From a virus, in the IMG/VR virus record IMGVR_UViG_3300027969_000001, positions 94,715 through 158,714 of that record: DNA of 64,000 nucleotides. The stretch is one strand, 5' to 3'. The notes under the pieces are model-generated. The model worked only from the letters and a program-made list of their open reading frames with translations, was not told the origin of the DNA and did not search any database. This document shows, piece after piece, positions 5,829 to 37,681 of this stretch; the first letter of the stretch is position 1; each line of letters opens with the position of its first letter. The translations under genes and the position numbers were made by a program.

Positions 5829-5880
5829 ACGGGGGACTGCGTGTATAACGCGTCTTAAACGACACTGTGGTGTGCCCTGT
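5829..5880 (+). ncRNA. candidate small structured RNA in the tRNA cluster
   Basis: Closing stem ACGGGG/CCCTGT enclosing hairpins GCGT-GTATA-ACGC, GTC-TTAAAC-GAC and ACAC-TGTG-GTGT (the last two overlap). Confidence 0.3.
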
Positions 5881-5884
5881 TATT

Positions 5885-18600: not shown

Positions 18601-21600
18601 AGAGTCGTGTCCAGTAGTTCGACCATTCGTCTGCGGCATGTCTTCACGAGCTATACCTATGTGTCCAGAGCAAAGAAGGTTATTCTCTGGGTTATAAAGC
18701 ATACATAGGTCTGCCTGATGTTTTTCTTTGTATTGACGCTTTGCCTCGGCAATCATTTCAGGACTTTTTAAATCTTCGTCAGAGTTAATTTTTTCAAATT
18801 CTGATTTAAATTTAAGCCATTCGGGGTGTTCGTTTTCAATTTGATTGGCTGCTTCTTGCTTAACAAGTTCTTCAAATTGTTTTTGAGCTTGCTCAGTAAG
18901 TCTTACATCTTCATGTTTTACCATCACATGATGACCTGCCATCATTAGCGCAAGAGCGTCCTCGACTTTATCTACTTCATATAGGTGTGAAGATTTTTCA
19001 CTTACAGACTTTTGACCAGACCTTCTGACGGTTCCACCAAAAAACGATGACAGCTCTTCTTCGGACATGGTTTCAATATCTTTGCCATTATCGGCTATTT
19101 TTTTAAAAGTTTCCAAAGCAGATTCAGCAATAGCTTTTTCTTTTTTCCCTCTTTCGGCTACCTGTTCAGCGGAGTCGGAGACACCAGAACTGAGTCTCCC
19201 AGCTCTTGCTGCTGGGTCCATACCGGCAAGTCTTTCAACTCTTCTACTACCACTAGAAACCTGAGGACCTACGCTGGATGCCCGCATGGTGCCGTCGGCA
19301 AGGAACTTTTCTAGGTCAGGTTCACGCATTCTCACCCTGACTCTTCTGTCAAATCCGTTATGCATCTGAAAGGCAGCGGTTTCCAGGTCTGAAATTATTT
19401 GCTCGTGAGACTGGGTCGAAAGTTTTTTAACAACAGCACTATCAAGTGATGAAATAGATAGCGCTTCGTGCTCGCCTGAACCAGAACCGGATATCACCTT
19501 ACGAAGTTCTACCGAACGGTCTTTTATTCTTCCGTTTCTTTGTGTAGTTCTTGCTTCCCGGGTCATTGCTGGTCCGAATACGTCGGAGTGGCCAGAAGAA
19601 AGTTTTCTAGCAACTTCCGACGCAGGACGGCCTCCTCTTTCTGCTGAAGTTTTACTTATAGATTCTAAATATGTTGGAAGCTCTGTTGGGGCTTCGCCAA
19701 ATACTCCACCCTTATCGACTACGTCAGAAAGAACTGTCCTGCTTGTTTCTTTAACAGAATCCGCATCGTCAGAGCGTGAGCCAGGAAGAGGGGAATCGTG
19801 TCTGGTTACTGCGTAGTTGTCTGCAAAGGTTTTAAGCTTTCTTGAAGCACCTTTACGCCATGCAGCATCATCAGTGCCCGATGCTATCGATGTAGCCATC
19901 GAATCAAGGACTTCAACGGTTCCTTTTTGCTCGGCAATTTCTATGCGAATAGTTCCGTCAGCTTCTCTTCCAACAATTCTAATTTTTCCTGGAGGCATAA
20001 CGACAGTTTGGTCTCCACTATCTCCAATATTGGGAAATATTCCCCTGTCTTTTGCTTTAGCAACAATAACTACGCGCTGTTTTACTTTTCCTGTTTCTTC
20101 ATTTATCTTGGTAGCTTCATCAATAACAGTTTTTTTCTGACCTTTAGAAATCACTCGGCCACTTAATAGTCCGTCGTTTTCTATCTCCCTACCTATGGAA
20201 ACTCCCGTGAAAATAGTAGGGTCAAATTCCATTACTGTTTCTATATCTAGCTGCTCTCCAAGTGAGGAAACTTCCATTGCCTCAAGTGTGGGAACTAGTA
20301 TGTTTTTGATTTGGTCATCGAAAGAAGCTTCACTACTAGATTTATCATCTATTGGAAGTGCAAGACGTTTTAATCGAGCATTTTTTCTGTTTGCAGCCCT
20401 ACCTACGGATATTTGCTTAGATGGCTCTAGCGCACCAGCTAACCCATCAGTATCGAATGTGCCCATCTCTTTAACGGCATCAGATTGTTCTTTTGTTATT
20501 TTTCTACGGAGCCGTGCTCTTTGCTTTTTACCCATATCTCGAGCTTCGGTAGCTGATGCTACTTTCCGTGATGCTCGTGGCTTAGGCGAAAGTACAGTTT
20601 CAACTTTCCCATCAAGCTCCATCAGGATTTGCGCAGTGGTTCTCTTATCGCCGGCGTCTTTTATAGATTTTGCATACTGGTTTCTGAGAAGGTCAAGTTC
20701 CTCTGCTTTATCCATGAGGTCTTTGTCTAGTGCTGCAATATCGACAACAGTTAATTCACCATCTGGAACGGTTTCTACGTCGGCTGGAACATAGGAAGCA
20801 ATTGAATTTTCTATATCTTTAATCAGTAATGAATGGTCAGCTATCTTGCGAACTAATTCTTTTTCTGACATCGAAGAAGCAAGTCCCTTTAGGTCATCAA
20901 GAGCTGCGGCCCTAGAAGCGGCCTCTATCTCTTCTGGAGCATAAAGACCGTGAGCATCTCTAACTTCTTTTACTCTCTCTTCAAATCTAGCCAACTCAGT
21001 TTTTGAACCAACGCCATGTTCTTTTCGCCATATTTTTTTGGCGTCTTCATACATTTTGTCGTAAAATTCAAATTCTTTTTGTGCAGAATCAAAAGCGGGA
21101 GAAGTTATGTCATCTATAGAATCCATTTTTGCTGAAGCATTATCACGCTGTGCTGCAACTAGTGCTGCGTTGTTTATCATGTCTTCTTCTGGGAGCTCCT
21201 TAAAAGCTTCACTGAAAGACTTAAGGGCTGCGCGTCGTTCTTCTGAGGTTCTTTCTCCAACTGAAATCAACTCTTCCGCCATGTCTTCCGCGGGCATATC
21301 CGGAACAGCGTCTCCAGATACGTCTGGAATAAAATCTCCACCAGCATCACCGCTTGGAATAATTGAAGAAACTATGGCTCTATCTTCAGCTGCCGCCCTC
21401 ATGGAGACATTGTCCATCCATTCAAGTGCTGCATCAATATCTTCGCCGTAAATTATTCCCTGTTCACGAAGCGCCCAAAGCTCTGCGCATACTTCTAGGG
21501 CCCAGTGCTCTCCGCCTTTTCTGTACACATCCCCTGGGTAGCTACCAGCAAGAGCTGATACAACTTCAATTCTGCTTAATGCTCCATTAAGTGCTTCAAT

Positions 21601-23562
21601 GTTTATATCATCAGCAACATCTATCATGATGTTGGGCCAGTCGTAGCTCGTTATCTGAGTAAAATCAGTAACAGTTCTGTATCTCCCCGTAAACATTCCC
21701 GTTTTTTTGTCATATTCCGGAATGCGGATTGAACCACCAGCCATTAGTTCTGCTTCAATATGGTCCATAAATGCTTGGTACTGAAGTGTGTGAGAAATTT
21801 CGTGGAATATCTGCTGGCGCATGTACGATTTTTCGCCATCAATCAAACCGGCCATACCTCGTGCCGTGTGGTCGGCGTTGACGAGGAAATCTGCAACTGT
21901 TGCCCGTGCTTCAGCGTCAGTAGAGGCTCCAACTGCAGCTACCGAAAGTCTTTGATTTGGGCGCAACGATGGAAGTAGTGACTCTTGCCCAGACATGCTG
22001 TTGTGCATGTTTAGGGAGATTATGTATTTTCCACCTACGTACCTTGTACTCATTTCGTCAGTGCTCGAGTTGTCATACTCCATGACGTTTGTGCGGCGCA
22101 TCGTTGTTGGGGATTTTACATACTGGTCCAGAAGTCCCTCTAGGACTGCGCGCTCAGTGCTGTAGTACCTAGATACGTCTGCTTTTAAAACAATATCTTG
22201 TTCTTCTTTAGTTAAGTCTCTCCATCCTTTTACGGACTGTAGTCTTGCTTGGCAAAACTGCTCAACTTCAACCGGAGTAAGCATTGCTCCATCGGCTCCA
22301 CCACGCTGATGAACGAGCCTTATGTCCCAACCAAGAGAGGGGTCAGAAGCCGCTAAAGCGCGAAGCGCATCAAACCCCTGCTTAAGGTCTTCATTTGTTG
22401 CTCGTGCAGTTTCACTTCTATCAACGCCGAGAGAATCAAGTATCGATGAAACACGGGCATCTGTTTGTAACATTCTGTCCTGTGCTCTTATTGCGCCATT
22501 CTTAAACCATCTCTGGTTTTCTGGCATCTCAATACTTCGCCAGTCAGGCGTGTCTACGCGTTCTCCAGTTATGGAGTCGTACCAGACAGTTCTTCCGAGT
22601 TTTGCCAAATAAGAAGGGCTCGGTATTTCGCCAGGAACCCTGTCTGCCATTGGGTCGTATCTTTGGGAGCTCCAGTTGCCGTTAAATACCCCATCAAAGA
22701 AACGTTGAGCAGTGGTTCTGGTCCCCTGTAGTTTCCCGTCAGCGGTGGCTGTTTGCGCCATTCTTGCAGCAAATCTACCGAACTTAGACGGACTAAAGCC
22801 AAAACAGTTTGTCCCATACATGTCCGTAAACTGATTTGCGGCCGGCGTCCCTGGAGGGCATCTGAACTTATTTAGCTCGTCTTTTATTACTCCAAATGCG
22901 GCAGCCGCACGTGAAGCCAGGTTTCCCCCGGGAATACTGGAGCCTATTCTTTCCCCAGGAAGAATCTTTACTTCGGGGTCGAGCTTGTTTCCTGTTTCGC
23001 GACGCTTTTCTCCAACTGTTAATCCAGAAGTTATTGAGAACGGGTTGACTACTCGTCCAGACTCTGGGACAATATCGTCAGTACGTGGATTGACATCGTA
23101 TACGGTTAGTTCTACGGATGGTTTTTTTATTATCTGATTTAGTTCGTCTTGAAAAGAACTTGACTTTGGCTCTTTATCAGCAAGCCAGCCAAAGTTTGGT
23201 TTTTCTTCCAAGCCATGAATACTTGAGTATGAAGGAAAAAGTTGAAGGTGTTTTCCTTCTTCCCATGTCTCGTCTGGCATGAATCTTTCGCCAGTAGGAA
23301 GAGATTCCATCCCAGGAATTGACCCGCCGCGCATGTCGCGCTTTTTGCCATCAGTATTATCTTTGTCTACGCCTCCACCAAGAGGAGTTCCATCAAGTGC
23401 TTTGATAGATATATCTGCGTATAGACGCTCAGTAGCAGAACTTATTGCAATTGATTTTCTGAACGAGACAGCAGTCTTGTTTATGTCTTTACAGCAAGAC
23501 GTAGGCACTATTAAGCGCGCAGATAATATTACTCGTTCACGGACTATTGAATCACCCGTCAT
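15625..23562 (-). CDS. 2645-aa polyvalent protein: zincin metallopeptidase, degenerate VIP2-like ADP-ribosyltransferase, ParB/Srx domain, split DUF3626-like domain
   Basis: HEISH (21790-21804) plus EVCAE; ART-like segment ~19930-20500; ILDGHHRWAA (~17941-17970); MPVSGYL..GDIEVVLK..NRTSY..FEAQILGG. Confidence 0.7.
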   Translation of the reverse strand: MTGDSIVRERVILSARLIVPTSCCKDINKTAVSFRKSIAISSATERLYADISIKALDGTPLGGGVDKDNTDGKKRDMRGGSIPGMESLPTGERFMPDETWEEGKHLQLFPSYSSIHGLEEKPNFGWLADKEPKSSSFQDELNQIIKKPSVELTVYDVNPRTDDIVPESGRVVNPFSITSGLTVGEKRRETGNKLDPEVKILPGERIGSSIPGGNLASRAAAAFGVIKDELNKFRCPPGTPAANQFTDMYGTNCFGFSPSKFGRFAARMAQTATADGKLQGTRTTAQRFFDGVFNGNWSSQRYDPMADRVPGEIPSPSYLAKLGRTVWYDSITGERVDTPDWRSIEMPENQRWFKNGAIRAQDRMLQTDARVSSILDSLGVDRSETARATNEDLKQGFDALRALAASDPSLGWDIRLVHQRGGADGAMLTPVEVEQFCQARLQSVKGWRDLTKEEQDIVLKADVSRYYSTERAVLEGLLDQYVKSPTTMRRTNVMEYDNSSTDEMSTRYVGGKYIISLNMHNSMSGQESLLPSLRPNQRLSVAAVGASTDAEARATVADFLVNADHTARGMAGLIDGEKSYMRQQIFHEISHTLQYQAFMDHIEAELMAGGSIRIPEYDKKTGMFTGRYRTVTDFTQITSYDWPNIMIDVADDINIEALNGALSRIEVVSALAGSYPGDVYRKGGEHWALEVCAELWALREQGIIYGEDIDAALEWMDNVSMRAAAEDRAIVSSIIPSGDAGGDFIPDVSGDAVPDMPAEDMAEELISVGERTSEERRAALKSFSEAFKELPEEDMINNAALVAAQRDNASAKMDSIDDITSPAFDSAQKEFEFYDKMYEDAKKIWRKEHGVGSKTELARFEERVKEVRDAHGLYAPEEIEAASRAAALDDLKGLASSMSEKELVRKIADHSLLIKDIENSIASYVPADVETVPDGELTVVDIAALDKDLMDKAEELDLLRNQYAKSIKDAGDKRTTAQILMELDGKVETVLSPKPRASRKVASATEARDMGKKQRARLRRKITKEQSDAVKEMGTFDTDGLAGALEPSKQISVGRAANRKNARLKRLALPIDDKSSSEASFDDQIKNILVPTLEAMEVSSLGEQLDIETVMEFDPTIFTGVSIGREIENDGLLSGRVISKGQKKTVIDEATKINEETGKVKQRVVIVAKAKDRGIFPNIGDSGDQTVVMPPGKIRIVGREADGTIRIEIAEQKGTVEVLDSMATSIASGTDDAAWRKGASRKLKTFADNYAVTRHDSPLPGSRSDDADSVKETSRTVLSDVVDKGGVFGEAPTELPTYLESISKTSAERGGRPASEVARKLSSGHSDVFGPAMTREARTTQRNGRIKDRSVELRKVISGSGSGEHEALSISSLDSAVVKKLSTQSHEQIISDLETAAFQMHNGFDRRVRVRMREPDLEKFLADGTMRASSVGPQVSSGSRRVERLAGMDPAARAGRLSSGVSDSAEQVAERGKKEKAIAESALETFKKIADNGKDIETMSEEELSSFFGGTVRRSGQKSVSEKSSHLYEVDKVEDALALMMAGHHVMVKHEDVRLTEQAQKQFEELVKQEAANQIENEHPEWLKFKSEFEKINSDEDLKSPEMIAEAKRQYKEKHQADLCMLYNPENNLLCSGHIGIAREDMPQTNGRTTGHDSVAIRMLKDGKAAGKWAPLGNKGDAVKQNIEIEQRYVAEIEKENQKLIADGKSAMTPQQQTAFVYKTIGEKHNTENELTKKTVAEHRATFLALPEDEKQWLYDNTNWQDVEVNLEMPFIEFLKEQIKTEDGRDGVITKAADPTTYQPSQRQLVASKVDSTNEDITKDVFKQVKKLEDSGLVRGTPEFKKAYDEAMSKLWFMSPILATEDKYILDGHHRWAAIIVANRSLPKELQLPLNVNEVQTDIVEGLTLGKVFQGEWGIKAAKLGVEDKWKVGTIDSISDEDIVSKAKVLEKDAPGLVDEMYAGGSFIKLGSVGLSRNPDYAARLSERQSIAYDRRLLSEASAARETAYNAAVIEEARLGSAPKTVEEKINKLSSGLSDALTGRGRGKAPIAGWDEGDTFGAEVARRLDGTPEAKAVHDAYEVYEGGKSYEDMYGEPFNADKQLTRELDAVKKASKKRESIVQAMLQEGWEKDKNAKKSSPQPVRIENGDLSGRSKRRAVNGAVNSALKKSNINSSYRRPIRDAIWESHRSAIQTYHYELDQLANDISRHSAPELAEIAIRDLHRRGEITESEMLSTIKNIQPGTMSVEEKTKIANAYKDASDAFMRVATVSKDAEKLSPTSQRTAGKFGRINKQRGWTSGPIAAKFSSGASVGMANEKLSREYYSRIGIPPDVSNETMPVSGYLVHKSHVDEKIRRATAANKGNVSNDAIFEIGDKDIVGDGLTSLGDIEVVLKSGVSNRTSYGRGEAMNTSHRPVKLNSINKHDILDATINAEGKNNKNNNMDATLHLMGAGMDGNFAHVNAGLSDDGKMAPVKKLDTADRKRVPFEAQILGGFDKDEVEQINYPYSKIKEMSSNVDISDVVNTKTISEKLRASGFSQEEIDYFYSLGGAGKMNSQNMQMLREYRAAQGVKDKFNKLGFNNIRIAHPDGINIENPRIIAKNVSPSANMESILRNEIMFDIQEQAEKALKEMRKGGKPELITNLRRPR

Positions 23563-25403: not shown

Positions 25404-28400
25404 CTAAACAGCTGTTGAATCAGAAATTACTCTCGTTCCATTTTTGTTTTTACCGTAAAGAGTTTTTCCATCTTTTTCTATACGCTCTCGCGCTGTACGA
25501 AGTTGTTCCGCACTGAAAATGTCATCTATGGAATAATTTGTTCCAAAAACTTCATTGAATCTATTTACAACACCCTGAAGCTCATTTGTTGAATATCGAG
25601 GGCTGTCGCCCTTCTTCGGAGAAAAAACTGGACCACGTGTAGCAGCCAGTTTAGGCAGCTCAGTATGTATGTCTTTTTTACCGATTATTGAATGAACAGT
25701 CTCTCTATTGGCTTTTGACTTTTCCACGCCACTCTTTTGAATGAATTCATTTAGGGCTTCGTACACAGCATGCTTGGAACGACTCAGCTCGGAATCAAGC
25801 TGTTGACCAGCTTTCCCTTCCGTCCAAATAGAAGAAGCATCAGGTATTACTCCCTTGCGAATCATTTCATCGATATAAGCGACGGGAACGCCTTTCTTTT
25901 CCCATTCAGCAGCATCACGCCTACTTCCAAGACCAACATTCTGACTACCAAAACTTTCAGCAATCACTTGACGGAGTTTTTCGTGCCAGTTATCGTTTTT
26001 GCTAATACCGAGGTGCTCCAGAAGGGGCTCTATTTTGAAATCCTGTCTAGATGTCTTGTCGGTTGCTATCTGCTCAGCAGTGACTGTTCCTGATGGAGTT
26101 AAGGATGCCCCAGACATTCCTTCCAGCATTAAATTATGTTCTGCTTCCGAGTCGCCATCAGTAGCACTATTCTTCTGGAATCGGCCCATTGCCTGAAACT
26201 TGGCAACAGGACTAACTTCCCCAAGAGAAGCGTATTCATCTGGCGTTATTGATTGTTGTTCTTCTTGGTCAAACCAGTGAGGGAATGCGTCTTTACCAAA
26301 AGTCTCAACAATGAATCGGTCTCGCATGCTGGCTCGGCCTATATTCTCGGCAAATACTTCTTCAGCGTTCCACTTTTTCTGCTTTGCTTCCGCCGAATCT
26401 ACTGGGGCAAAAAGCCTCCATGCTCCGAATTCTTTTTGCTTGCCGGTTTCGGCCAACATGTACCTGACTGCGTCATGGTTAATAGCTGCGCCATCTTTTT
26501 CCAACAACGCAGCGTCTCTTCTGCCAAGACCAAGCATGCTTGCTAACTCGGCATTGGTGATTGGACGAGTCTGTGAATGGAAAGACTCAGACAGTGAACC
26601 ACTATCGGTATAATCCCTAGTCCACTCTGTCGGAACACGAATGGCATCCTTGAGCTTGGATACTGGGAGCATCCATGTCTCAGCTGAAGGCTCTTGATTG
26701 CCACCATTTTGAGATATGTTTCCAATCTTAATTGATGGGCGCTCGCGCATTCTTTCAGAAATAGCATTAAGCGCATTATTCAGTGCTTTTTGTTTCTGGG
26801 CAGGGTCTGTTGAGTCGGAGTCAATATCAAGTGCTATGCCATTATCTCTAAAGCCCTTCCATATGCTCATTGATGTTTTTGTGATTGCTCTATTAGTGCC
26901 ACTATTTTTTGTAACGCTAGAGAACCCAGCAAGCTCTATGGGGTGCGCTAAACGTCGGGTGTCGCCTTCTGCACCAGACATGTCCTCGCCGGCATTACCG
27001 ACCGTACGAATACGCCTGGAGAGACGTCCACCAGCATTTGATGAAGCTGCACCACTGCTTAGTTTGGCAACGCTTCCTGAATCGCTTTCAGGGAAGTCAT
27101 TAATCCAGTCTAGTGAACCAAGTTCAAGCTGTTCTTCTGCTCTTGTAACGGCAACATAAGAAAGTCGGAGTTCCTGCTCGTCAGGCATAATCCATGTTTT
27201 CTTCTCTTTGTCCCACTTTGGTTTTCTAAAGTCTGACCAAATTTTTACTCTTGGAGACTCAAGACCCTTAGAGGTATGTGCTGTTTGAATATGCACGTAG
27301 TCGTCGCGATTTTCTGGCAGTTTTTTCTTGTCGGTAATAATCTTGCTGAGTGCTTCACGCAAGTCTGCAACAGAGTTCTCTGCAAGCAGCTTATTAAGCA
27401 TGTTTAATCTGTTGTTATCCCCGTCCTCTATGGCTTTTTTGAATTCTTCCATAGTAGTAATTCCGTCAAGGTCTTGACTTGGAGGTGGAGGAGTCTTGAC
27501 TTCTTTGCCAAATTCGTTGATGTAGAAAGGGTTGCCTTTTGCTTTGTTTTCCATCCAGTCAATGTTTTGGATAAAATTTTCTAAGTCTTTCTTAAAGTTC
27601 TTACTTCCATATACAGCGCCGCCCTTGCTGAAAACATCCATAGTTGCCGCAATGGCTCCACCGTTTGCACGAGTAAGAATCATTGTTGGTTTATCTATAG
27701 TTGTAATTACTCCATCTACAGGATTACCTGACTTGTCTGCTTTCTTTCCGGTCATGCGTTCTTTTGCACCAAGAAGCGATAGGAACTGGTTTCCTACTCC
27801 AGCAATTACTTTTCCAAATCTATAAGAATCTGTAATTGGCATGTCATATACGGATTTTGCATCATCTAAAGTTTTTCCATCAGCCCCTCGCCAGGCGTTG
27901 ATGGCCTGATTGGTATCGCCAATGTAAATTTTTTGAATATCGCCAGAGTTTGCCAGCATCTTTGCAAACACAGGGTTCATATCCTGTGCCTCGTCAACCA
28001 TGGCTATATTGGCTCCGGCTATTTTCCCAATGTCTGGGTCGGTTAGTGCCCATATTTTTGTTAAATGAGCGTTGTTCGTTGGCAACATTCCCTTTTTGCC
28101 ATCACGTGCAGTATTAATGTCTTCCCACATTTTCTTGGCATATCCGACCAACTCGGGAAGTATTTTTTCATCTTTCACTGCTAATGAACCATTGAAGGCA
28201 CCGGTAAAGTGCTGAGGGCCAACTTCCTTATCATCACTGATTACGAAAGCATCAATTGCCTTCTGTACTCTCTTGTAAACATCTATGGCACTGAGTTCAT
28301 CTGCTTCAGAAACCATACCCTTTATACCGAGATATGCGGCTCTATCTTTGTAAGACTTGATTGGGTCTATCCAGTTGACAGCATCAGCCTCGTAGCTTTT

Positions 28401-31400
28401 ATCAGTCAAGTTTCTATTAATTGCCTTCATGGCATTGTAGGAAAGACTGTCCATAGTTCTAATCTGGAAGAAATCTGGAGAGATGCCTTCTTTGGCTATT
28501 CTCTTTGTTACGTCGTCTTTGGCGTTAACGTTAAATACTAAATAAGCAATTCTTGCTTCCGGTTCTGATTTCTGCAGTCTCTTAGCAAAGTTAATAACTG
28601 TTGTTGTTTTACCCGTTGCCGCTAAAGCTCTAACCTTTACGTCTGCTCCAGTCATCATTGCGTCTATAGCAACATCTTGTTCAGGGTTAGGTTTTCTGTT
28701 GGCAGGGAGGTCTGGGTAGTCGTATTTCTCAACGTCTTTTATGTCAATTATTTTTCTAGGTTTTCTAGAGAATGGAGCACTTGGTGTACTTGGCGCACCT
28801 GGGGCATTCGGGGTGGAAGGCTTGGATGGAGTAGCGTCACCATTTGGCCATACGGTTTTGCCGTTTTCAACGGTAGGCCAGCCATAAACCATGTTACGAA
28901 GCGTGTCCCACTGTGACTGACTAAGGACTCCATTTTTACTCTTATGCTGAGAAAGAACACTAGGTAAGAAACTTTCTTCAAAACCCTTTTTGGGAGTTTT
29001 TGCTGCGGCAGCTTCTATTAGTTTTTTCTGCTCTTCTGGATTTGGCATGTCTCCTGGTGGATTTTTGCCAGAAGACAGGCTTTGCGGAGCAGTTACTGTT
29101 GGTGTAAATGTTGATGCTTTAGGAGCTCCACCACCGTACGGATTCCAGTGTCCGTTTGGCCTTTGTTGTTCTGGTCCGAGTTTTGTTGGACCATTGGCAA
29201 TGCCGTCAATACCGGTGTTTCTGGCTGGGTCGAATATCCAATCGAGGCCTGGACCGGGGTCAAAACCTAATTTTGCACGAGTAAGTGCAACATACAGAAG
29301 ATGTGCTTCTTCTCTTGGCAACCTATTGTTAACCTCACCAGCATCTTTCTGTGCTTGAGTGAGTGCAATCCCCATGTCACGAGCATTGGACCTTCCCCAG
29401 TCATCACCCATCATGACGTAGTCGGCTTCAAGGCCTTTTACCCCGTGTCCGGTAATTACTTCAATATCAACGCCTTCAGTGTCGTTTACGTGGTCTGTGA
29501 GGTATCTTCCAAGTTCTGAAACAATAGAAGCACTTTCTTCTAGGGTGTCACCGGAGACAACCCACCCATCGCCAGGCGGGCGCTGCGCCTTCCCGTCTAA
29601 AGCAACACTCTTCTCATGGTAGGATATTTTCCCTTCCATTTTGTGGTCTTTAATCCATTTTTGAAGTGCAAGTCTGCTTGGCCCGAGCGCAGTAGCTTTT
29701 GTGGCTGAGCCGTTCGCGGCCGTGTATGACTTTACTCCGTCAACTCCGTTACCGGTTATGAGAATACTCTTCCCGTCCCATTTGCCTGATGCCGTAACGC
29801 CAGGACCAAGCCACGAACCAGAGTCGGTAAATAATGGTCTCCAGTAAACCCTATTAATATCTGCGTCACCATTAAGAGATGCTGGAATAATTATGTTTGG
29901 CTCAAGGCCGCCCATTATCCACGGGCCATTAGCACCAGCACCAGATTTCTTGGGATTGAGTGCTCCCTGTATTTTTACAGCTTCAATATCAATTTGTTCA
30001 AATGGGTCTATGTCTACCCTTTCTTGAACTGGAATAATTTTTCTCTTAGAATAGTCAAATTCACCTTTTACTGAGTCCCACATGCCCTCTAAGGCTTCTA
30101 CGTAATCCATGGCGCTCATGTTGGCTTGCATTATCGCCCCGGTTTGTGGGTCTCTATATGTAGCCCGTGTTCCGTCTGGGTTCATTTTAGGCAAATCAAG
30201 AAGCCTCATCAACGAGAGCGCGTCAGCATTAGCTTTACCGTCGATAGAAAGTATTCTCTTGACGTCTTGAATACTTGCAGCGTCCATCACTTTTCCACCA
30301 AGAAGCTTTGACTCCACTGGTCTTGCAAGTTTTTTGCCAGAGTTAATCCAATTCAGAACCTTCATTGCGGCAAGCATTTTAGAGTGTCTTTCCTCCGGCA
30401 TGCCAAGCGTCTTACCAAGTCGCGTGCTTATTTCTATACCTTGAGAAATCATTCCCGCATTGGTCCTGAATATAACCATGTTTTTGCCAGGACGGTCAAA
30501 TTTGTAGTCTCTAAGTATTTCTCCGTCAGCCTGAGCAGCAAGAGCCTGCATGGCATCGGTTAATAATTTGTCTCTATCTTTTTCATTAAGTGAGGGAAGC
30601 GCGGAAAGACTTACAATGTTTTCATCCAGACGATTGTTTCTTTTTTGTATGTCGACCCATCGAGCGTCGTACTTCTTGGCAAGTTTTTGAAATTTTTTAG
30701 TAAGTTCATCTTTGGATAGTCCAGCAATACTGAAGTCGGCTTCGACTACACCAGCAGCTCTACCAAACAATTGGTAATCGGAAGCTTCTGGGTCTACGCC
30801 ATCGTTTCTGTCCTCGATATTCAGCATGTTAAGAATCGAGTTACCTAAGTATGCTTGTAATCTTCCGTATCTAAAAGAGTCACGAAGGGTTAGTTCAAAT
30901 GTTGGTTTTACTTGAGCAAAAGTATCTGATGAACCTCTAAACCCAAAGATTGACTGACGTGGGTCACCAACCATCATTATGCTGACGCCTTTTTCGGCAT
31001 TGTCGGCAATTACTTGCTGAACTACCTGGTTAGTGTCTTGTGCCTCGTCGAACATGAACAGGCTCAACGGTTTGTCTTTTGTTCCAAACTGGCGGTACCA
31101 CGTTGCACCTGTCTTGTTGTGTGTAACAATGCCTGTCTTGCCTTTGACGGCTCTTGTTCCGGATGGGGTGGCTTTTGGAAAACCCTGCTGGTCCCTGCTG
31201 GCGTGACCAATCAAACCTGGGTCTGTTGATAGGTCAGGCTTGGTTAATGCCCACATTTTTACTTGATGGTCAAAAGTTGGAAGAACGTTTGAATTATCGT
31301 CCGTAATGTCTTTCCACATCTGTTCCAACTGCTTAACCCAAGCATCTGGAACAGGCTGGGTCCACACGCGGTCTACTACAGGACTTAGGGTGGTGCTGCC

Positions 31401-34400
31401 TCCATTTAGAACCATGTTCTGTATGTCAAAAGCAGAATGTTCAAAGTGTTTTGCACTTATGGTCTCGTCGCCGCTTATGCAGAACCTGCTAAGAGCATTG
31501 TTGAGGATTGCTCCGTATTGAAGTGCGCTTATTTGCGTGGCATCAAACATCTGACTACCCAAGGGAAGTGCGCCACCATTGTTGCTTCCGCCATATTTGA
31601 TTTCGTCTAATTTGTATTTTTCGACAACAGCTTTAGAGCCCTCTATTTTGTCAAAAGCGGTATACCCAAGCGTTCTGTACCCAACAGACTTAACACCTAC
31701 TAAATCCACAGTAGTTCCATCAAATCTTGTGATGGTTTTTTTAACGGTTGCCTGTTTATGGGTTTTACCCCAGTACGAATTGCCTCCGCCACTTGCACCA
31801 ATTGAAACTTTTTCGGCAGTTTTTGGGCCGAACATTTTATTTCCGGTGCCAAACTTGAGTGACCAATACGCCAATTGATTAATTGTTGAAGAACCAGTAT
31901 TTTCTGGCATTCTTCCGTTTGCTTCTTGCGCGTTTTTTCTGGCAAAAGTAATGTAATAAACTCCTGCTTCTGGGTCTTCTAGTTGAACAGCTTTAGAGAC
32001 TGCTTCCAGGGTTGTCGTTTTGCCAGTTCCGGCACCCGCTCTTACTGCAGCTATCCCACCCGGTTGCTCCAAGAAATGAACTCCGGTGTCAATGATTGCA
32101 ACTTGTTCTTCAGTTGGCGTGTAGTTGAGGCCTAGGCGCTCGCGAGCGCTTTCCGCGTCGCTTCTCTTGACTATTCTCTTATCGTCAAACTTGCTTACAA
32201 TCGGCTTCAGGTCAGCGCCGCTGCTTAGCTTACGATAAGACTGGTCGTATCTATTGCCGTCTTTGTCTTTAATTAAGAATCCAGGGATTCCTGCAAGGTC
32301 TTCTCCAAAGAGTCCTGATGACATTGCACCAACAACGCCTCTTCTCTTTCCTCCTGCAGGAACTCTAAATGGAGCCTGTGGAGAAAGTGGTTTTTTCTCG
32401 CCTTTCTTTGGTGGGCCGAGCTTGACTGTAACGTTTCTGGCAGTGTTTGTTCCAGGAACCGTGAAGGTAAAGTCTTGACGACCTTTTCTTTCGTCGTCTC
32501 TTTTACCAGCAAGTCTACGAAGCGTTGGCGACTTGTTCATCATGTAGTCGATGGCCTGCTGTGCCTGTGTTAACGCATCTTGAAGTGCGTTTGGGTTATC
32601 GCGAATGGCTTGCATCCAGCCGGAAACGTACTGAGCGTGGTCTTCTCTGACTGTCGGCTCAAGGCCAAGGATTCCCATGGCGAAAGCGCTACCAATTTCA
32701 GCAATTAGTTCTTCAAATGCGTACCTAGATTTAGATTCGGCTCCAGCTCCTCGCATTCTTCCTGTTTGGTCTCTATTGAGGCGAGATGGGTGGCCGGTCC
32801 AGTGGGTTGTTTCGTGAAGCAGTGTTGAGTAGAAACCTATTGGGTCCTTAAAAGAAGAGAACGTGGGCATTGTAATAGAGTCATTGGAAGGTGAATAAAA
32901 TGCTCGGCCTTGTTTTGCCTCTTTCCAATCCGGTCCTATTTCTGAAATAACGTCTTCAATGTCTTTCATTCTCTTCGCTGCGTCAAGTTCGTCATGCGAG
33001 ATTGGTTTATAGAACTCCTCCGGCAAGCCTTTTACTTCAGCAACGTTAATAACTTCAGTAATGTGAAACGTTCCTGTTGGGCGACCGTTGTATAAAGTTG
33101 GTGCAATTATCTGTACGAGCTTATTCTCATATCCCGGTTCTAGTTCTCCGCCAGCTTTCTTCCATTGAGCCACCCCAGCCCAACGTGGAATCTCGTACCC
33201 ACGATGCGATGCAACCTGCATGAGAAGGAATTGGTTTGTTCCTTCATATGTTCTTTTGGTATTTGGATTAGTAGCAAAAAACATTGCTCTTCTCCAAGGA
33301 AATTCCCATGTTGAATTAGGGTCATTTTGTACTTTTTCAAGAGAAGCTAAAAAGTCTTTAGCCATCAAGTCGTACATTTCCTTAAGGGAACTTTCATCTA
33401 GTTCTTGACCTGATGAAAGTTTTGCTAGCGGACCATCGTACTTAAATCTGTCTTCGTCAGACCTGTTCTTGGGACTTGTTTTGAGATAAAACTTATAGTC
33501 GTTAGAAAGGTCTTTTCCAGGAATGCTGAATTTCTTATCTGGATTTGGTGATTTAGGAGCTGAAATTTTTGCTACAGAGTCGCCGACTTCGTTCTCTAGT
33601 TTTTGAACTGGTTTTTTAGCACTCGGAACACGGTCTTTTGGCTTGACGTCGGGGGCCCCAATAGGCTTCAATGCGTTCTGGATTCCTATGAAACGAGGAT
33701 TGGTTGAACCTTCGTCTACCCAGCCGTCATTGTCGGGGTCAAAGGTACTGAATGTGGGTTTTCTGTATCCGCGAACGCCACCAGTAGGGATGTCGATATC
33801 CGTGCTTCTATTTCTACGGTTGTCGCCAAGATGACGGTCACCAAGGGTTGGTCTGTCTATGAGACGAGAACCAATCGCCCTTCCTAAACGAAAGCCTGCG
33901 GCCTTTGTTTCGGGGTCAAACTCAATTAAAGATTTTTTTTTTAGGTTATTGAGTGCAGTGTCTACTGCATCTATGAGTTCCAGGGTTACTCCGGATGTGA
34001 GAACGATGCCTTCCGTATCAACAAAAGACTCAACTCTGTGATAATCAAAAATTGGGTCAAGAGCTTGTTTTACTTTAAATGCATGCTCTACGACTACCGG
34101 AATGTAATACGGCTTATCATCGTATGAATCACCGAGACTAAACTCGGCGAGGCTTTTGTACTTGCGACGGGAGAGGAATTTATTCTCAATTGCCCCACGG
34201 AGTGAAACAACAGCCAAATCTTCTGGGTACTTAACTTCTATGTCTGTTAAATACTCGACTTCTGAATTGAGTTCATCTAGTCTGTACGACTTCATGACAG
34301 ACGGACCGGCATTAACCACGCCAGGAGGAATTACGGCGAATCGACACTTTCCTTCACTCTCAACAGCCATGTCAATAATCTTGCATTTTCCTTCACCTTG

Positions 34401-35513
34401 GAAGAATACGCAGTTTGAGCATTTGACGCCTATTCTAGCAATTTCGTTTTCTATGGCCGGCGTATATCCAGCCCACACACCTTCGGAGTCTTCATTGAAC
34501 TTTCCGTGGCGAGCTACAATCTTTAGCAAAGCGTCTCTAAGGTCCGCTTCTTCTTTATCGAGGTTTCCAGGAGTTTGCTGACCCATGTTGCTGTTGCCTG
34601 TATTCGCGTACTCAACTCGTGGAAGAGCAATAACAGCCATTCCCTCGCTAGTTGGCTTAAACGCCATCGGTACCGATGCTGCTGGTGGGCGCATGGGAAC
34701 CGTTGGAGCCTGAACTCGTGGAGTCGGCATAGACATTGGCATAGCCATTGGGGCACCGAACATGAAGCGGCCGTTGTTGTGCATGAATGGGCACTTGTAC
34801 TTTTCATTTTGACCGTTTTCGCCTACATGTCCATACATGACATGATTATCTGCAACGTCAGTCACGGAAACTTTTTTGCCGAGCATCATCGAGAGTTGCT
34901 TCTCTAGTTCCTCTACGTCCATACCATCAGTAACAGGAGTACTCATCTGTGGGTTCTCCATGATTGCAGACTGACCGTCAGACTTGACAGAGATGGTCCC
35001 CGTGAGTTGGTTTGCGCCATGCAATACAGGGCTTACTTCATAGAGTTCAAGCTCGTAAATAACGTTTGCTTGAGCCTTTTGGTCATACTGAGCGCGGAGG
35101 GTTTTGTAGCCAATTGACCACTCCTGCTCTTGACCAAAGAAGGCTACGTTTGAGAACGCCTCTTTGCCTTTTTCTGAAAAAAGATTGAACTGAACGCGAG
35201 CAAAAAGTCCACCAATACCAGCCATCTTCATTTTCATTGGAAGACGATTGTCGGTTGGCGGTACTTCGTAAATTTCTAGAACCTTACCGATAGGGTCGTT
35301 CCAGTTATGTCCCCAAACAACACGCGGCTTTCTGCGCATAAGGCTCTTGGTAAATGCTCCAGTTGCACAAATGTCACCAACAGAGTCTCTATTACCAATG
35401 CCTGCCACAAAGCACTCAACGATTCCCTGCGCTTCATCTAGGTTTAGCGAGCCATTTGCTGCTGCTGTAGAACCTAGTGATGCTGCTTTGTATTCAAACA
35501 TTTCTAAAGGCAT
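25404..35513 (-). CDS. 3369-aa prohead protease polyprotein: HK97-type protease, ArdC-like/zincin, two SF1 (UvrD-like) helicases, unknown C-terminal domain
   Basis: aa 1-180 DSVGD..GAF..WGHNW..PIG..WSIGY..LYEVSPVLHGAN; W..PW..N..T.RTYEGTN and HETTHWTGH..RLNR..YAFEELIAEIG; two full sets of Walker A (AGAGTGKTT, ALAATGKTT), DEAQD, GD..Q.I..[FW]RG, H..KGLE, YVA.TRA. Confidence 0.9.
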   Translation of the reverse strand: MPLEMFEYKAASLGSTAAANGSLNLDEAQGIVECFVAGIGNRDSVGDICATGAFTKSLMRRKPRVVWGHNWNDPIGKVLEIYEVPPTDNRLPMKMKMAGIGGLFARVQFNLFSEKGKEAFSNVAFFGQEQEWSIGYKTLRAQYDQKAQANVIYELELYEVSPVLHGANQLTGTISVKSDGQSAIMENPQMSTPVTDGMDVEELEKQLSMMLGKKVSVTDVADNHVMYGHVGENGQNEKYKCPFMHNNGRFMFGAPMAMPMSMPTPRVQAPTVPMRPPAASVPMAFKPTSEGMAVIALPRVEYANTGNSNMGQQTPGNLDKEEADLRDALLKIVARHGKFNEDSEGVWAGYTPAIENEIARIGVKCSNCVFFQGEGKCKIIDMAVESEGKCRFAVIPPGVVNAGPSVMKSYRLDELNSEVEYLTDIEVKYPEDLAVVSLRGAIENKFLSRRKYKSLAEFSLGDSYDDKPYYIPVVVEHAFKVKQALDPIFDYHRVESFVDTEGIVLTSGVTLELIDAVDTALNNLKKKSLIEFDPETKAAGFRLGRAIGSRLIDRPTLGDRHLGDNRRNRSTDIDIPTGGVRGYRKPTFSTFDPDNDGWVDEGSTNPRFIGIQNALKPIGAPDVKPKDRVPSAKKPVQKLENEVGDSVAKISAPKSPNPDKKFSIPGKDLSNDYKFYLKTSPKNRSDEDRFKYDGPLAKLSSGQELDESSLKEMYDLMAKDFLASLEKVQNDPNSTWEFPWRRAMFFATNPNTKRTYEGTNQFLLMQVASHRGYEIPRWAGVAQWKKAGGELEPGYENKLVQIIAPTLYNGRPTGTFHITEVINVAEVKGLPEEFYKPISHDELDAAKRMKDIEDVISEIGPDWKEAKQGRAFYSPSNDSITMPTFSSFKDPIGFYSTLLHETTHWTGHPSRLNRDQTGRMRGAGAESKSRYAFEELIAEIGSAFAMGILGLEPTVREDHAQYVSGWMQAIRDNPNALQDALTQAQQAIDYMMNKSPTLRRLAGKRDDERKGRQDFTFTVPGTNTARNVTVKLGPPKKGEKKPLSPQAPFRVPAGGKRRGVVGAMSSGLFGEDLAGIPGFLIKDKDGNRYDQSYRKLSSGADLKPIVSKFDDKRIVKRSDAESARERLGLNYTPTEEQVAIIDTGVHFLEQPGGIAAVRAGAGTGKTTTLEAVSKAVQLEDPEAGVYYITFARKNAQEANGRMPENTGSSTINQLAYWSLKFGTGNKMFGPKTAEKVSIGASGGGNSYWGKTHKQATVKKTITRFDGTTVDLVGVKSVGYRTLGYTAFDKIEGSKAVVEKYKLDEIKYGGSNNGGALPLGSQMFDATQISALQYGAILNNALSRFCISGDETISAKHFEHSAFDIQNMVLNGGSTTLSPVVDRVWTQPVPDAWVKQLEQMWKDITDDNSNVLPTFDHQVKMWALTKPDLSTDPGLIGHASRDQQGFPKATPSGTRAVKGKTGIVTHNKTGATWYRQFGTKDKPLSLFMFDEAQDTNQVVQQVIADNAEKGVSIMMVGDPRQSIFGFRGSSDTFAQVKPTFELTLRDSFRYGRLQAYLGNSILNMLNIEDRNDGVDPEASDYQLFGRAAGVVEADFSIAGLSKDELTKKFQKLAKKYDARWVDIQKRNNRLDENIVSLSALPSLNEKDRDKLLTDAMQALAAQADGEILRDYKFDRPGKNMVIFRTNAGMISQGIEISTRLGKTLGMPEERHSKMLAAMKVLNWINSGKKLARPVESKLLGGKVMDAASIQDVKRILSIDGKANADALSLMRLLDLPKMNPDGTRATYRDPQTGAIMQANMSAMDYVEALEGMWDSVKGEFDYSKRKIIPVQERVDIDPFEQIDIEAVKIQGALNPKKSGAGANGPWIMGGLEPNIIIPASLNGDADINRVYWRPLFTDSGSWLGPGVTASGKWDGKSILITGNGVDGVKSYTAANGSATKATALGPSRLALQKWIKDHKMEGKISYHEKSVALDGKAQRPPGDGWVVSGDTLEESASIVSELGRYLTDHVNDTEGVDIEVITGHGVKGLEADYVMMGDDWGRSNARDMGIALTQAQKDAGEVNNRLPREEAHLLYVALTRAKLGFDPGPGLDWIFDPARNTGIDGIANGPTKLGPEQQRPNGHWNPYGGGAPKASTFTPTVTAPQSLSSGKNPPGDMPNPEEQKKLIEAAAAKTPKKGFEESFLPSVLSQHKSKNGVLSQSQWDTLRNMVYGWPTVENGKTVWPNGDATPSKPSTPNAPGAPSTPSAPFSRKPRKIIDIKDVEKYDYPDLPANRKPNPEQDVAIDAMMTGADVKVRALAATGKTTTVINFAKRLQKSEPEARIAYLVFNVNAKDDVTKRIAKEGISPDFFQIRTMDSLSYNAMKAINRNLTDKSYEADAVNWIDPIKSYKDRAAYLGIKGMVSEADELSAIDVYKRVQKAIDAFVISDDKEVGPQHFTGAFNGSLAVKDEKILPELVGYAKKMWEDINTARDGKKGMLPTNNAHLTKIWALTDPDIGKIAGANIAMVDEAQDMNPVFAKMLANSGDIQKIYIGDTNQAINAWRGADGKTLDDAKSVYDMPITDSYRFGKVIAGVGNQFLSLLGAKERMTGKKADKSGNPVDGVITTIDKPTMILTRANGGAIAATMDVFSKGGAVYGSKNFKKDLENFIQNIDWMENKAKGNPFYINEFGKEVKTPPPPSQDLDGITTMEEFKKAIEDGDNNRLNMLNKLLAENSVADLREALSKIITDKKKLPENRDDYVHIQTAHTSKGLESPRVKIWSDFRKPKWDKEKKTWIMPDEQELRLSYVAVTRAEEQLELGSLDWINDFPESDSGSVAKLSSGAASSNAGGRLSRRIRTVGNAGEDMSGAEGDTRRLAHPIELAGFSSVTKNSGTNRAITKTSMSIWKGFRDNGIALDIDSDSTDPAQKQKALNNALNAISERMRERPSIKIGNISQNGGNQEPSAETWMLPVSKLKDAIRVPTEWTRDYTDSGSLSESFHSQTRPITNAELASMLGLGRRDAALLEKDGAAINHDAVRYMLAETGKQKEFGAWRLFAPVDSAEAKQKKWNAEEVFAENIGRASMRDRFIVETFGKDAFPHWFDQEEQQSITPDEYASLGEVSPVAKFQAMGRFQKNSATDGDSEAEHNLMLEGMSGASLTPSGTVTAEQIATDKTSRQDFKIEPLLEHLGISKNDNWHEKLRQVIAESFGSQNVGLGSRRDAAEWEKKGVPVAYIDEMIRKGVIPDASSIWTEGKAGQQLDSELSRSKHAVYEALNEFIQKSGVEKSKANRETVHSIIGKKDIHTELPKLAATRGPVFSPKKGDSPRYSTNELQGVVNRFNEVFGTNYSIDDIFSAEQLRTARERIEKDGKTLYGKNKNGTRVISDSTAV

Positions 35514-35541
35514 TTGGCTTCTTTTCTTTAGCGATGAAACG

Positions 35542-35577
35542 ATAATAAACTATTTTGTAGGTCTGTTAGTGCACCTA
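35542..35577 (-). promoter_or_regulatory. putative late promoter (TAGGTGCAC-N21-TATTAT)
   Basis: Bipartite motif with identical 21-nt spacer. Confidence 0.6.
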
Positions 35578-35617
35578 TTGTTATTATCCATTAATATAAA
35601 GAAACAATATAAAGAAA

Positions 35618-37681
35618 CTAAGCTACTTGAGCAAAGTTCCAAACATCCCTTGCGCCTGTTTCGGCTATTTCAAACTGTTCTTTAGCAAAGAAGTTTGCAT
35701 ACATATCAATCAAACCCTCCCTGAAGGAGAGGAGGCGTCTATCTTCTTCGGCAAACTCAAAAGACTTGAGCATTATGGAGTTGATGTCAGAGAAGAATAC
35801 GTCATTAACCTTTTTGATTCTAAGCAAATGTGACTCAATATTCTTGACAACGTCAAACGGCTGAAGAGTTTTAATCTTCATACCGTATTCGTTTGACTTC
35901 TCGCTTCTTAATTCGTATGAGTCATTAATAATTGCAGATAATACGGGTTTAATGTCGTCATCAATCTGCTTATTCCATATATCTTTTGAGAGAATTGAAT
36001 CTATGTCCAAAGTTCCAGACATAAGAGACTTTCTAGCCTTTGCCCCACTGGCCTTCTCAAGAACAACTCTTTGCTGTCTTTCGACAATACGTTCAATGCT
36101 TCTAGAAAGTATGTCCGTCCAGCGCTCAATTGCAGTCTCAGACCTATCTTCGGCTGTCGTTTCGTCACTCTTTGTTTGAATCTGAGTGTTTGAGTCAGAA
36201 GCCGTAACCATCCCAGGCATCGCCTCAGGAGCAAGCGCTTCTGGCGGAACAGTGTCTTGAGGCATTCCTTCAACTTGTCCTGCTGCTGCAAGGGCTCCCT
36301 GCATCGTATTGGGGTCAAGTGGCGGTGTTGCCCCCACTGGAGGCATTCCTGGTACTGGGGGTATTCCTGGAGCGCCTGGTGGCATTCCTGGCATTCCTGG
36401 CATTCCTGGAGCGCCTGGAATCTGTGCCGTATTTGGTTCTTCCATCTTCTTCTTAGTATTGGCAATTGGAATGAGGTTGGGGTTCATCAAAAGGGAGTCA
36501 GCCAAATCGGCTTCTACTTCTTTTCGTGAAGAACCTATTCTGTATTCGTTGTTGCTAATTAGACCTGCTTGGAATTCCTGCATCAGGTAGCGGTCGCGCT
36601 CTTGCTTGTAGAGCATCAAAATTGGGACACCGGTGGTATCAAAGTCAACGTAGTTCTTATCATCTAGTTCATCCAAAGCACGGGCGATTGGCTCCAAATG
36701 CGGAAGCATTGTCTCCATCCAGAATACCCTGATTTCCTCAGCAGCGTTACTAAACGTACGTCCTGCAGCATTTCCTATTACCGACTCCGGAACACCAAAA
36801 GCAGCAAGTATTTCCTCTTTGGTAACTTGGCGCATCTGAATATAGGCAGCATCTCTTGGGCTAGCCGAAGTGTCAACGAAGTCAACACCATCATCGGCCG
36901 AAATAACGGTCGTATGGCCGGCGCGTGTTATGTTTCCACGGAATCGACTACGGAGCTCCTCCTTGTCTTCTTCATCAATTTCTCCACGAAGGACAAGCAA
37001 TCCACCGGGACGACCATCATTAAGCAGGTAGTTGCGGTTGTAGAGCTTTGCCAAGTTCTCAATTTCTATCGCCACGCCAGATGCCTCAAGTGGAGTTAGG
37101 GACAGGTATGGGTCAAGAGGGTGCGGGCGACGAACCCAACAAACATCATCCGGCTTCATGATTACTTTTTGACCATTTGGCATGCTTACTTCGTAACCAG
37201 AAACAAAGGTCTTGGGGTCGGGAATTGGGGCAGTTGACTGAGGTGGGAGTAGGTTTAGTCCAATTATCCCACCATCACGACCACGCACTTTTTCGATAAA
37301 AGCACCCCGTGTACCAAGGAGAAGCTGAGCGGAAAGCCTGTATCTAAAAATAAATGAGTTTTCCCCAACATTGGACTTGACGTTTAGGAGTTCCAGCAAT
37401 GTTGAGCGGTTCGCCTCGCGGCCAACTATTATCTCACCCTTGCTGGAGTTGTCTTTGCGGAGTATGGCCGGTAGACGTGCCTGGTTTCCAGCGATAGCAT
37501 CAATGCACCGGTTAACCCAGGTAATTTTTGACATGCCTTCGCGGTAAGCACGCTCGATATCCCACGAGTCCCTGTATGGCTTACCCTCAAAAGAGGGGTT
37601 ATTTGAGATAGGTATTCCATACCCCAACCCCTTCGACCCCGATGACTGAACTGATTTATTCTCTGACGAGTTCCATCCCAT
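35618..37681 (-). CDS. portal protein (HK97 family) with Pro/Gly/Met linker and C-terminal MuF-like extension
   Basis: WVNRCIDAIA, GLNLLPP, YLSLTPLEA, NDGRPGGLL, EILAAFGVPESVIG, GLISNNEYR; PGM repeats; helical extension ending IAETGARDVWN. Confidence 0.9.
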   Translation of the reverse strand: MGWNSSENKSVQSSGSKGLGYGIPISNNPSFEGKPYRDSWDIERAYREGMSKITWVNRCIDAIAGNQARLPAILRKDNSSKGEIIVGREANRSTLLELLNVKSNVGENSFIFRYRLSAQLLLGTRGAFIEKVRGRDGGIIGLNLLPPQSTAPIPDPKTFVSGYEVSMPNGQKVIMKPDDVCWVRRPHPLDPYLSLTPLEASGVAIEIENLAKLYNRNYLLNDGRPGGLLVLRGEIDEEDKEELRSRFRGNITRAGHTTVISADDGVDFVDTSASPRDAAYIQMRQVTKEEILAAFGVPESVIGNAAGRTFSNAAEEIRVFWMETMLPHLEPIARALDELDDKNYVDFDTTGVPILMLYKQERDRYLMQEFQAGLISNNEYRIGSSRKEVEADLADSLLMNPNLIPIANTKKKMEEPNTAQIPGAPGMPGMPGMPPGAPGIPPVPGMPPVGATPPLDPNTMQGALAAAGQVEGMPQDTVPPEALAPEAMPGMVTASDSNTQIQTKSDETTAEDRSETAIERWTDILSRSIERIVERQQRVVLEKASGAKARKSLMSGTLDIDSILSKDIWNKQIDDDIKPVLSAIINDSYELRSEKSNEYGMKIKTLQPFDVVKNIESHLLRIKKVNDVFFSDINSIMLKSFEFAEEDRRLLSFREGLIDMYANFFAKEQFEIAETGARDVWNFAQVA

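What the first reader, a model, noticed from the sequence alone, without database searches (positions are those of the whole stretch)
25404..35513. Prohead protease fused to ArdC-like anti-restriction module and two intact SF1 helicases (3369 aa)
Seen: one uninterrupted ORF in the canonical protease position after portal: protease (~34980-35513), ArdC-like ssDNA-binding domain plus HETTH zincin (~32540-33400), helicase 1 (~29280-32130), helicase 2 (~27130-28690). Known: HK97 proteases are ~200 aa and are packaged in the procapsid; ArdC-N/MPTase modules occur in polyvalent proteins of plasmids and phages. Inference: the essential protease acts as a packaging handle for counter-defence and DNA-processing enzymes needed before phage gene expression. 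I do not know of a described protease-ArdC-double-helicase fusion.
Basis: partly seen in the sequence, partly recalled or inferred. Interest (0 to 1): 0.9.

Follow-up and report, generated by a model that had tools for sequence, protein, structure and literature searches.

The report
Phage maturation protease heading cassette polyprotein
A freshwater phage fuses its head-maturation protease to a string of swappable enzyme cassettes separated by a short repeated motif, and that motif changes in step across several virion proteins from lineage to lineage, which suggests tailed phages can package and cut polyproteins much as RNA viruses do.

Summary
The 3369-aa ORF is real: S78 protease, ArdC-N/MPTase and two SF1 helicases, all with intact catalytic motifs. 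It lies in a 159-kb myovirus, probably of Ilumatobacteraceae. The fusion is lineage-wide (40 database clusters). Two helicases occur in only 7 and at least 8 have none, so the double helicase is incidental.

The stronger finding is the punctuation. An x-[L/M/F]-S-S-G motif separates the modules (20 copies in three giant proteins, 0.56 expected). It avoids domain cores, marks homology breakpoints and sits at two fixed sites in the tape-measure-position protein. Two divergent lineages use G-[F/L]-A-S or G-[L/M/F]-[R/K]-S instead, in every carrier examined that holds several cassettes and in the tape measure. A DxDxDG leader precedes the cargo, and ArdC switches carrier.

Best reading (0.65): head-packaged polyproteins cut at this motif by a phage protease into ejected effectors. 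Cleavage, packaging and the protease's identity are inferred, not shown. First-stage notes already recorded the LSSG motif here and in another genome; I saw no note of the lineage covariation in four look-ups. Closest known: polyvalent proteins.

The parts
25404..35513 (-). 3369-aa protease-led polyprotein ORF (371 kDa)
34980..35456 (-). S78/HK97-type prohead serine protease (aa 20-178; His69, Ser133), ending at a conserved Lys177
   Evidence: Pfam and PHROG; best fold matches T4 gp21 Z 7.2, rmsd 3.8, 121 aligned, and VZV protease Z 6.2; Lys177 invariant in 29 sequences
33906..34979 (-). Conserved head-associated middle region (aa 179-536): small alpha/beta domains, Pro-rich linker, Cys-rich segment; conserved E-x-K sites at Lys428 and Lys537
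   Evidence: function inferred (scaffold or tether)
33681..33911 (-). Leader (aa 535-611) with DxDxDG motif, 69% identical to the N-terminus of the 4250-aa giant; candidate capsid-targeting tag
33408..33422 (-). Motif 1 (KLSSG)
32514..33380 (-). ArdC cassette: ArdC-N ssDNA-binding domain plus HExxH zincin (MPTase)
   Evidence: HExxH and EE kept in 26/26
32313..32327 (-). Motif 2 (AMSSG)
32217..32231 (-). Motif 3 (KLSSG)
29229..32216 (-). SF1 helicase H1 (about 1000 aa with inserts), the lineage's common helicase family
29067..29081 (-). Motif 4 (SLSSG)
27114..28745 (-). SF1 helicase H2, compact, best PDB hit FBH1 (E 4e-13); separate family, 64% identical to the sole helicase of another sub-lineage
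27051..27065 (-). Motif 5 (KLSSG)
25407..27050 (-). Conserved 548-aa C-terminal module, well modelled (pLDDT 78), no family or fold assigned
35618..37681 (-). Portal protein, immediately upstream
15625..23562 (-). Second giant (2645 aa) with four motif copies (19591, 19183, 17467, 16645) and an HExxH near aa 585
54696..59585 (+). 1629-aa protein in tape-measure position (after sheath, tube and chaperone); motif at aa 36 (54798-54812) and aa 576 (56418-56432)
   Evidence: tape-measure identity inferred from gene order, no family hit
9412..10761 (-). HK97-fold major capsid protein with conserved x-x-K|S/D sites in its N-terminal domain

Best explanation
The ORF is one of several late, head-packaged polyproteins built as carrier + leader + (motif + cargo)n. 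Shown: domain content, motif enrichment, cassette shuffling at the motif, the shared leader and genome-wide covariation of the motif. Inferred steps: (1) The precursor enters the prohead through its protease, middle region or leader. (2) The S78 domain cuts HK97-type K|S/A sites in the capsid protein and in itself (Lys177, Lys428, Lys537), freeing the cargo arm. (3) A phage protease cuts at [L/M/F]-x-S, probably just before the invariant Ser, releasing ArdC (41 kDa), H1 (114 kDa), H2 (74 kDa) and the C-terminal module (60 kDa), and it trims the tape measure too. (4) These pieces are ejected with the DNA, bind and remodel it, and shield it from restriction. My odds for the cutter: S78 itself 45%, a phage zincin (the ArdC MPTase or the HExxH domain of the 2645-aa family) 35%, host or other 20%.
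For: Motif: 20 copies in three giant proteins against 0.56 in shuffles (maximum 4 in 1000), and 4 in the other 40,000 residues; codons are synonymous but varied, so selection acts on the protein. Across 26 homologues, only 1 of 217 motifs lies inside a domain core, although cores make up about 45% of residues. 50% of BLAST segment ends fall within 15 aa of a motif against 9.7% at random (the sequences are related, so this is not a p-value). Module order and content differ between motifs. The tape-measure-position protein has the motif at aa 36 and at aa ~570-607 in 6/6 genomes. A second lineage uses D-G-[F/L]-A-S (17-26 copies per protein), and its tape measure has LASRG near aa 46 and GFASR at aa 631. 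A third lineage uses G-[L/M/F]-[R/K]-S in five head-gene carriers and at tape-measure aa 588, with 0 hits in 6742 non-carrier residues. The third form has the shape of the capsid's EIK|S sites and of HK97 K103/S104 (PMC10275583). The leader precedes cargo in different carriers. Cultured relatives with cargo-free proteases show no such motif array.
Against: No proteomic, virion or expression data exist. The capsid K|S sites stay fixed across lineages while the motif changes, and S78 stays 76-87% identical, which is awkward if S78 is the only cutter. A tail protein is not expected inside the prohead. In the 2645-aa protein, a motif-bounded insert splits a domain that is contiguous in a relative, and one homologue has a motif inside helicase 2. 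ArdC antirestriction did not need the protease activity in plasmid R388 (PMC7213743). N4 vRNAP and TraC1 are delivered uncut (PMC5512222).
Confidence: 0.65

Rival explanations
1. The polyprotein is packaged and ejected whole (or cut only at K|S sites). The motif is a binding or modification tag, for example for an ejection chaperone, and not a scissile bond.
For: Covariation and linker position show a shared recogniser, not that it hydrolyses. Uncut polyvalent proteins exist (PMC5512222). The motif can sit inside a domain loop.
Against: The third-lineage motif looks like a prohead-protease site. Copies flank both sides of every cassette and sometimes isolate linkers of only 10-36 aa.
Confidence: 0.17
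2. The cargo is cut off and works in the cytoplasm late in infection (replication, recombination, packaging support). The fusion serves only co-expression.
For: Helicases suit replication, and ArdC acted when expressed in recipient cells (PMC7213743). Cultured Caulobacter and Brevundimonas phages carry ArdC-like genes.
Against: The carriers are mostly genes of the head cluster, and cargo moves among them. The same motif marks the tape-measure-position protein. Antirestriction is needed at entry (inference).
Confidence: 0.13
3. The motif is only a DNA recombination scar or a low-complexity linker, or the ORF is a chimera.
For: Assembly graphs break at the repeated leader.
Against: Codons of the motif vary, including both Ser codon families. 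Dozens of independent assemblies keep the frame. The motif is conserved in a non-cassette gene and changes in step across genes.
Confidence: 0.05

Closest known systems
Polyvalent proteins of phages and conjugative elements (Iyer et al. 2017, PMC5512222)
   Same: Giant multidomain effector protein with ArdC-N plus MPTase, encoded among virion genes; assemblin-like peptidases and UvrD-like helicases are listed as rare members; autoproteolytic release was proposed.
   Different: [quoted passage not shown] I found no recurring inter-domain motif, shared leader or tape-measure covariation in the passages read.
Effector fusions to MuF, portal or the capsid-processing peptidase (PMC9503650; Streptomyces phage Gilgamesh gp52)
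   Same: A head protein is used as the route into the virion.
   Different: Mostly one or a few effector domains, against arrays of 4 to more than 20 motif-delimited cassettes on up to five carriers.
T4 capsid-targeting sequences and SPN3US/phiKZ ejection-protein processing (PMC5694885, PMC10052503)
   Same: A prohead protease cuts many packaged proteins at one motif; leaders direct packaging.
   Different: In SPN3US the identified cuts remove N-terminal propeptides from separate gene products (apart from self-cleavage); they do not split one ORF into several enzymes.
Plasmid R388 ArdC (PMC7213743; PDB 6SNA/6I89)
   Same: Whole two-domain architecture aligns (E 3e-36).
   Different: Stand-alone plasmid protein; here a cassette in a protein from a phage head gene.
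Gordonia phages Gray/GMA6 and Brevibacterium phage Cantare proteases
   Same: Closest cultured S78 domains (38-42% identity).
   Different: About 420-480 aa, protease plus acidic tail, no cargo and no motif array.

Membership tests
HK97-type prohead protease (S78) | Profile match and assemblin-type fold | tested here: met
   PF04586 34.4 bits against a cut-off of 21; best structural matches T4 gp21 Z 7.2 and VZV protease Z 6.2, middling scores on a long model
HK97-type prohead protease (S78) | Catalytic His and Ser | tested here: met
   His69 and Ser133 invariant in 29 sequences; role assigned from family knowledge
HK97-type prohead protease (S78) | Gene between portal and major capsid protein | tested here: met
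   Portal directly upstream; capsid gene downstream on the same strand
HK97-type prohead protease (S78) | Cleaves the capsid precursor in the prohead | not testable with these tools
   Only candidate K|S sites
ArdC | ArdC-N plus HExxH metalloprotease domain | tested here: met
ArdC | ssDNA binding and protection from type I restriction | not testable with these tools
   Homology only
SF1 (UvrD/FBH1-like) helicase | Motifs I, II, III, V and VI in each copy | tested here: met
   Read in the sequence, positions; PDB hit FBH1 for H2
Polyvalent proteins | Several unrelated effector domains in one polypeptide of a mobile element, with MPTase or ArdC-N | tested here: met
Polyvalent proteins | Variable architecture among orthologues | tested here: met
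Polyvalent proteins | Delivered with the DNA at invasion | not testable with these tools
   Inferred from gene context
Viral polyprotein (self-processed) | Recurring motif at domain junctions and an encoded protease | tested here: met
Viral polyprotein (self-processed) | Demonstrated cleavage at that motif | not testable with these tools
   No proteomics available
Gabija defence system (GajB) | UvrD-like GajB next to an OLD-nuclease GajA | tested here: inconclusive
   Short GajB hits over helicase motifs only; no PADLOC hit for the two downstream neighbours scanned; read as generic UvrD similarity

The most novel reading that the evidence does not exclude
A widespread clade of freshwater actinobacterial myoviruses runs a true polyprotein system. 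Several head genes act as carriers with a common targeting leader. Effector cassettes are gained, lost and moved between carriers at a short cleavage motif. One phage protease, whose specificity co-evolves genome-wide with that motif, releases the cassettes and also processes the tape measure.
Probability: 0.55. Interest if true: 0.9.

Novelty: new variant of a known kind. Interest (0 to 1): 0.78.

Why it matters
Processing of one ORF into many enzymes is a hallmark of RNA viruses, and my searches found no described motif-punctuated equivalent in tailed phages. The motif gives exact predicted cut sites, so the long-standing proposal that polyvalent proteins are released by proteolysis becomes directly testable. 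It also delimits dozens of unknown cassettes as candidate early-acting counter-defence proteins, including a conserved 550-aa module with no fold match. Three natural motif variants offer a way to identify the protease and to watch protease and substrate co-evolve. The leader plus motif could serve as a protein-delivery design for actinobacterial phages.

Tried and rejected
Misassembly or missed stop: rejected. Double helicase as the defining trait: rejected, 7 of 40. DNA-level repeat as the source of the motif: rejected. Gabija: GajB hits read as generic. C-terminal module: no Pfam or PHROG family, no Atlas feature hit, no Foldseek match at E 0.001 in PDB or BFVD, best VIA Z 4.8, Atlas TM 0.21, no GenBank phage hit. 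Sub-domains were not folded alone, so this does not show a new fold. A PDB sequence search with the protease found nothing. Promoter and terminator scans were at chance level. No RNA holder listed. A PepSY role for the 566-aa neighbour was not supported by Pfam and not pursued. Literature searches found no paper on this motif or this phage group; most subscription journals are not covered. Two papers on protease specificity were not held. Complex prediction was not used, since enzyme-substrate jobs are poorly informative.

Full report
OBSERVATION. The ORF 25404-35513 (-) is open for 3369 aa and follows the portal gene. It holds an S78 prohead protease (aa 31-175), ArdC-N (712-797), an MPTase zincin (852-980) and two SF1 helicases. 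Catalytic motifs are intact in all of them. The protease model matches T4 gp21 (Z 7.2) and VZV protease (Z 6.2) best. The ArdC cassette aligns with solved ArdC at E 3e-36, and H2 is closest to FBH1. Contigs of two runs, possibly the source samples, agree letter for letter. Both break at a short repeat in a leader shared with a paralogous gene.

GENOME AND HOST. The window is the last 64 kb of a 158.7-kb phage record with sheath, tube, chaperone, terminase and an HK97-fold capsid. A host-like gene at G000 30138-30974, which I read as methionine aminopeptidase from its sequence, is 94-96% identical to genes in MAGs labelled mostly Ilumatobacteraceae/acIV. The best holders of the DNA are freshwater metagenomes. 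The host is therefore probably a freshwater Acidimicrobiia. The closest cultured proteases (Gordonia Gray and GMA6, Cantare, Gilgamesh; 36-42%) are 418-642 aa and lack ArdC and helicases.

THE FUSION IS A LINEAGE TRAIT. 581 IMG/VR stretches encode a close protease; of the best 80, 48 are ORFs of at least 2300 aa, forming 26 non-redundant types with the window's. Protease region and ArdC are present in 26/26 and the C-terminal module in nearly all; the rest varies in content and order. Two loci (L007, L011) stop at 536-548 aa. In the protein database 40 clusters join S78 and ArdC, of which 7 have two helicases and at least 8 have none. H1 and H2 are separate families, and the window's H2 groups with the sole helicase of another sub-lineage (100/100). 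The double helicase is thus best read as a cassette gain. Other cassettes hit sigma-70 region 4 HTH, WYL, KTSC, zeta-like and pentapeptide families.

THE MOTIF. x-[L/M/F]-S-S-G occurs five times in this ORF, each at a module border, four times in the 2645-aa neighbour and eleven times in a 4250-aa ORF outside the window: 20 copies against 0.56 expected, with varied synonymous codons. Among homologues, 1 of 217 copies lies inside a domain core, and half of the alignment ends fall within 15 aa of a copy against 9.7% at random. In five further genomes the same three giants carry it. So does the tape-measure-position protein, at aa 36 and at aa ~570-607, in 6/6 genomes.

COVARIATION. Divergent protease-ArdC polyproteins of 4174-5687 aa use D-G-[F/L]-A-S 17-26 times. 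On a contig with an identical protease start, the tape measure has LASRG near aa 46 and GFASR at aa 631. That lineage's 1440-aa orthologue of the 2645-aa protein lacks the insert and has one related site. A third lineage, seen on one Logan contig, uses G-[L/M/F]-[R/K]-S in five carriers: the protease (2866 aa), and homologues of the window's 2645-, 167- and 243-aa genes plus a 2267-aa protein. It also has the motif at tape-measure aa 588, with none in 6742 other residues. There the protease lacks ArdC and instead carries a module homologous to the insert of the window's 2645-aa protein, while ArdC sits on the DUF3721 gene. Cargo therefore moves between carriers, and the motif changes in step across unlinked genes. 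This points to one trans-acting recogniser per lineage. The evidence rests on three lineages, two of them thinly sampled.

THE LEADER. Residues 535-611 are 69% identical to the N-terminus of the 4250-aa giant. The pair exists in 6/6 genomes; in two genomes the protease's leader is closest to its own genome's paralogue. A DxDxDG leader also precedes cargo in four third-lineage carriers. It begins at a conserved E-x-K, one of several (Lys9, 177, 428, 537) that resemble the capsid's sites and HK97 K103/S104 (PMC10275583). By analogy with T4 capsid-targeting sequences (PMC5694885) I read it as a packaging tag; this is inference.

MECHANISM. Best reading (0.65): packaging through the carrier or leader, release of the cargo arm at K|S/A sites, cutting at [L/M/F]-x-S, and ejection of ArdC, helicases and the C-terminal module to protect and prepare the incoming DNA. 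For S78 as cutter: the third-lineage motif has the K/R|S shape, the Ser is invariant, and the strand after the catalytic Ser differs among the three lineages (weak evidence). Against: the capsid sites do not change, and a tail protein carries the motif. For a zincin: HExxH is kept in 26/26 ArdC cassettes, zincins occur in all three lineages and would travel with the cargo, and autoproteolysis was proposed in PMC5512222. Rivals are a non-cleaved tag (0.17), late cytoplasmic function (0.13) and artefact (0.05).

COMPARISON AND NOVELTY. The protein meets the testable features of a polyvalent protein. Fusing an effector to the capsid-processing peptidase has been proposed as a packaging route (PMC9503650). 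It differs in having the syntenic protease at the N-terminus (PMC5512222 reports C-terminal only), in its motif-delimited mobile cassettes, and in genome-wide covariation that includes the tape measure. SPN3US processing removes propeptides only (PMC10052503). I noticed the motif before consulting the scan's notes. These show that first-stage readers had seen LSSG in this genome and in another; they are unchecked and add no independent weight. The two variant motifs returned nothing in a word look-up. Verdict: real; new variant of a known kind; interest 0.78.

Noticed in passing
L001:1460-14212 (-), G000 79459-92211: 4250-aa giant outside the window: same leader, 11 SSG motifs plus one LASG, a DEDDh exonuclease and a DUF3626 domain, two HExxH segments; orthologues run 1210-3479 aa.
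   Followed up: partly
window 16645-19197 (-): An ~850-aa motif-bounded insert interrupts a DUF3626-like region of the 2645-aa protein that is contiguous in the L222 and L223 orthologues. Excision would leave a nicked two-chain domain; religation is not excluded.
   Followed up: partly
window 33681-33911 and G000 ~91900-92150: Leaders of the protease gene and the 4250-aa gene share a 36-bp repeat and are mutually closest in G000 and G002, suggesting gene conversion.
   Followed up: partly
window 12405-14588 and 15625-23562: Both proteins carry a C-P-x-G...F-T-D motif, kept in 6/6 genomes; possibly a second head-targeting tag.
   Followed up: partly
window 23577-25277: 566-aa acidic, Cys-cluster protein always follows the protease gene in all three lineages; no Pfam, PHROG or PADLOC hit.
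   Followed up: no
window 37950-39263 (+) against 35618-37681 (-): Terminase and portal are transcribed divergently; the same layout holds in L222 and L227.
   Followed up: no
G000 35083-35718 (L140): ORF beginning with T-T-I-I-G resembles an HslV/proteasome-type threonine peptidase (from the sequence, untested); a further candidate processing enzyme.
   Followed up: no
L140:1139-1972: Host-like methionine aminopeptidase candidate, 94-96% identical to Ilumatobacteraceae/acIV genes.
   Followed up: yes
L007:9938-11548, L011:1526-3172: Protease ORFs that stop at 536-548 aa, around the leader's E-x-K; natural split forms or assembly errors.
   Followed up: no
L136 (G007), aa ~3638: One motif copy inside helicase 2 of a 4890-aa homologue.
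   Followed up: no
L131:263-5258: Cultured Gordonia phage Gray has an RNA ligase, a VIP2-like ADP-ribosyltransferase and an HTH protein as separate genes between portal and protease, the unfused counterpart of this arrangement.
   Followed up: no
window 2610-5961: Ribonucleotide reductase with a B12-dependent insertion-domain hit, tRNA-Arg(TCT) and tRNA-Asn(GTT).
   Followed up: no
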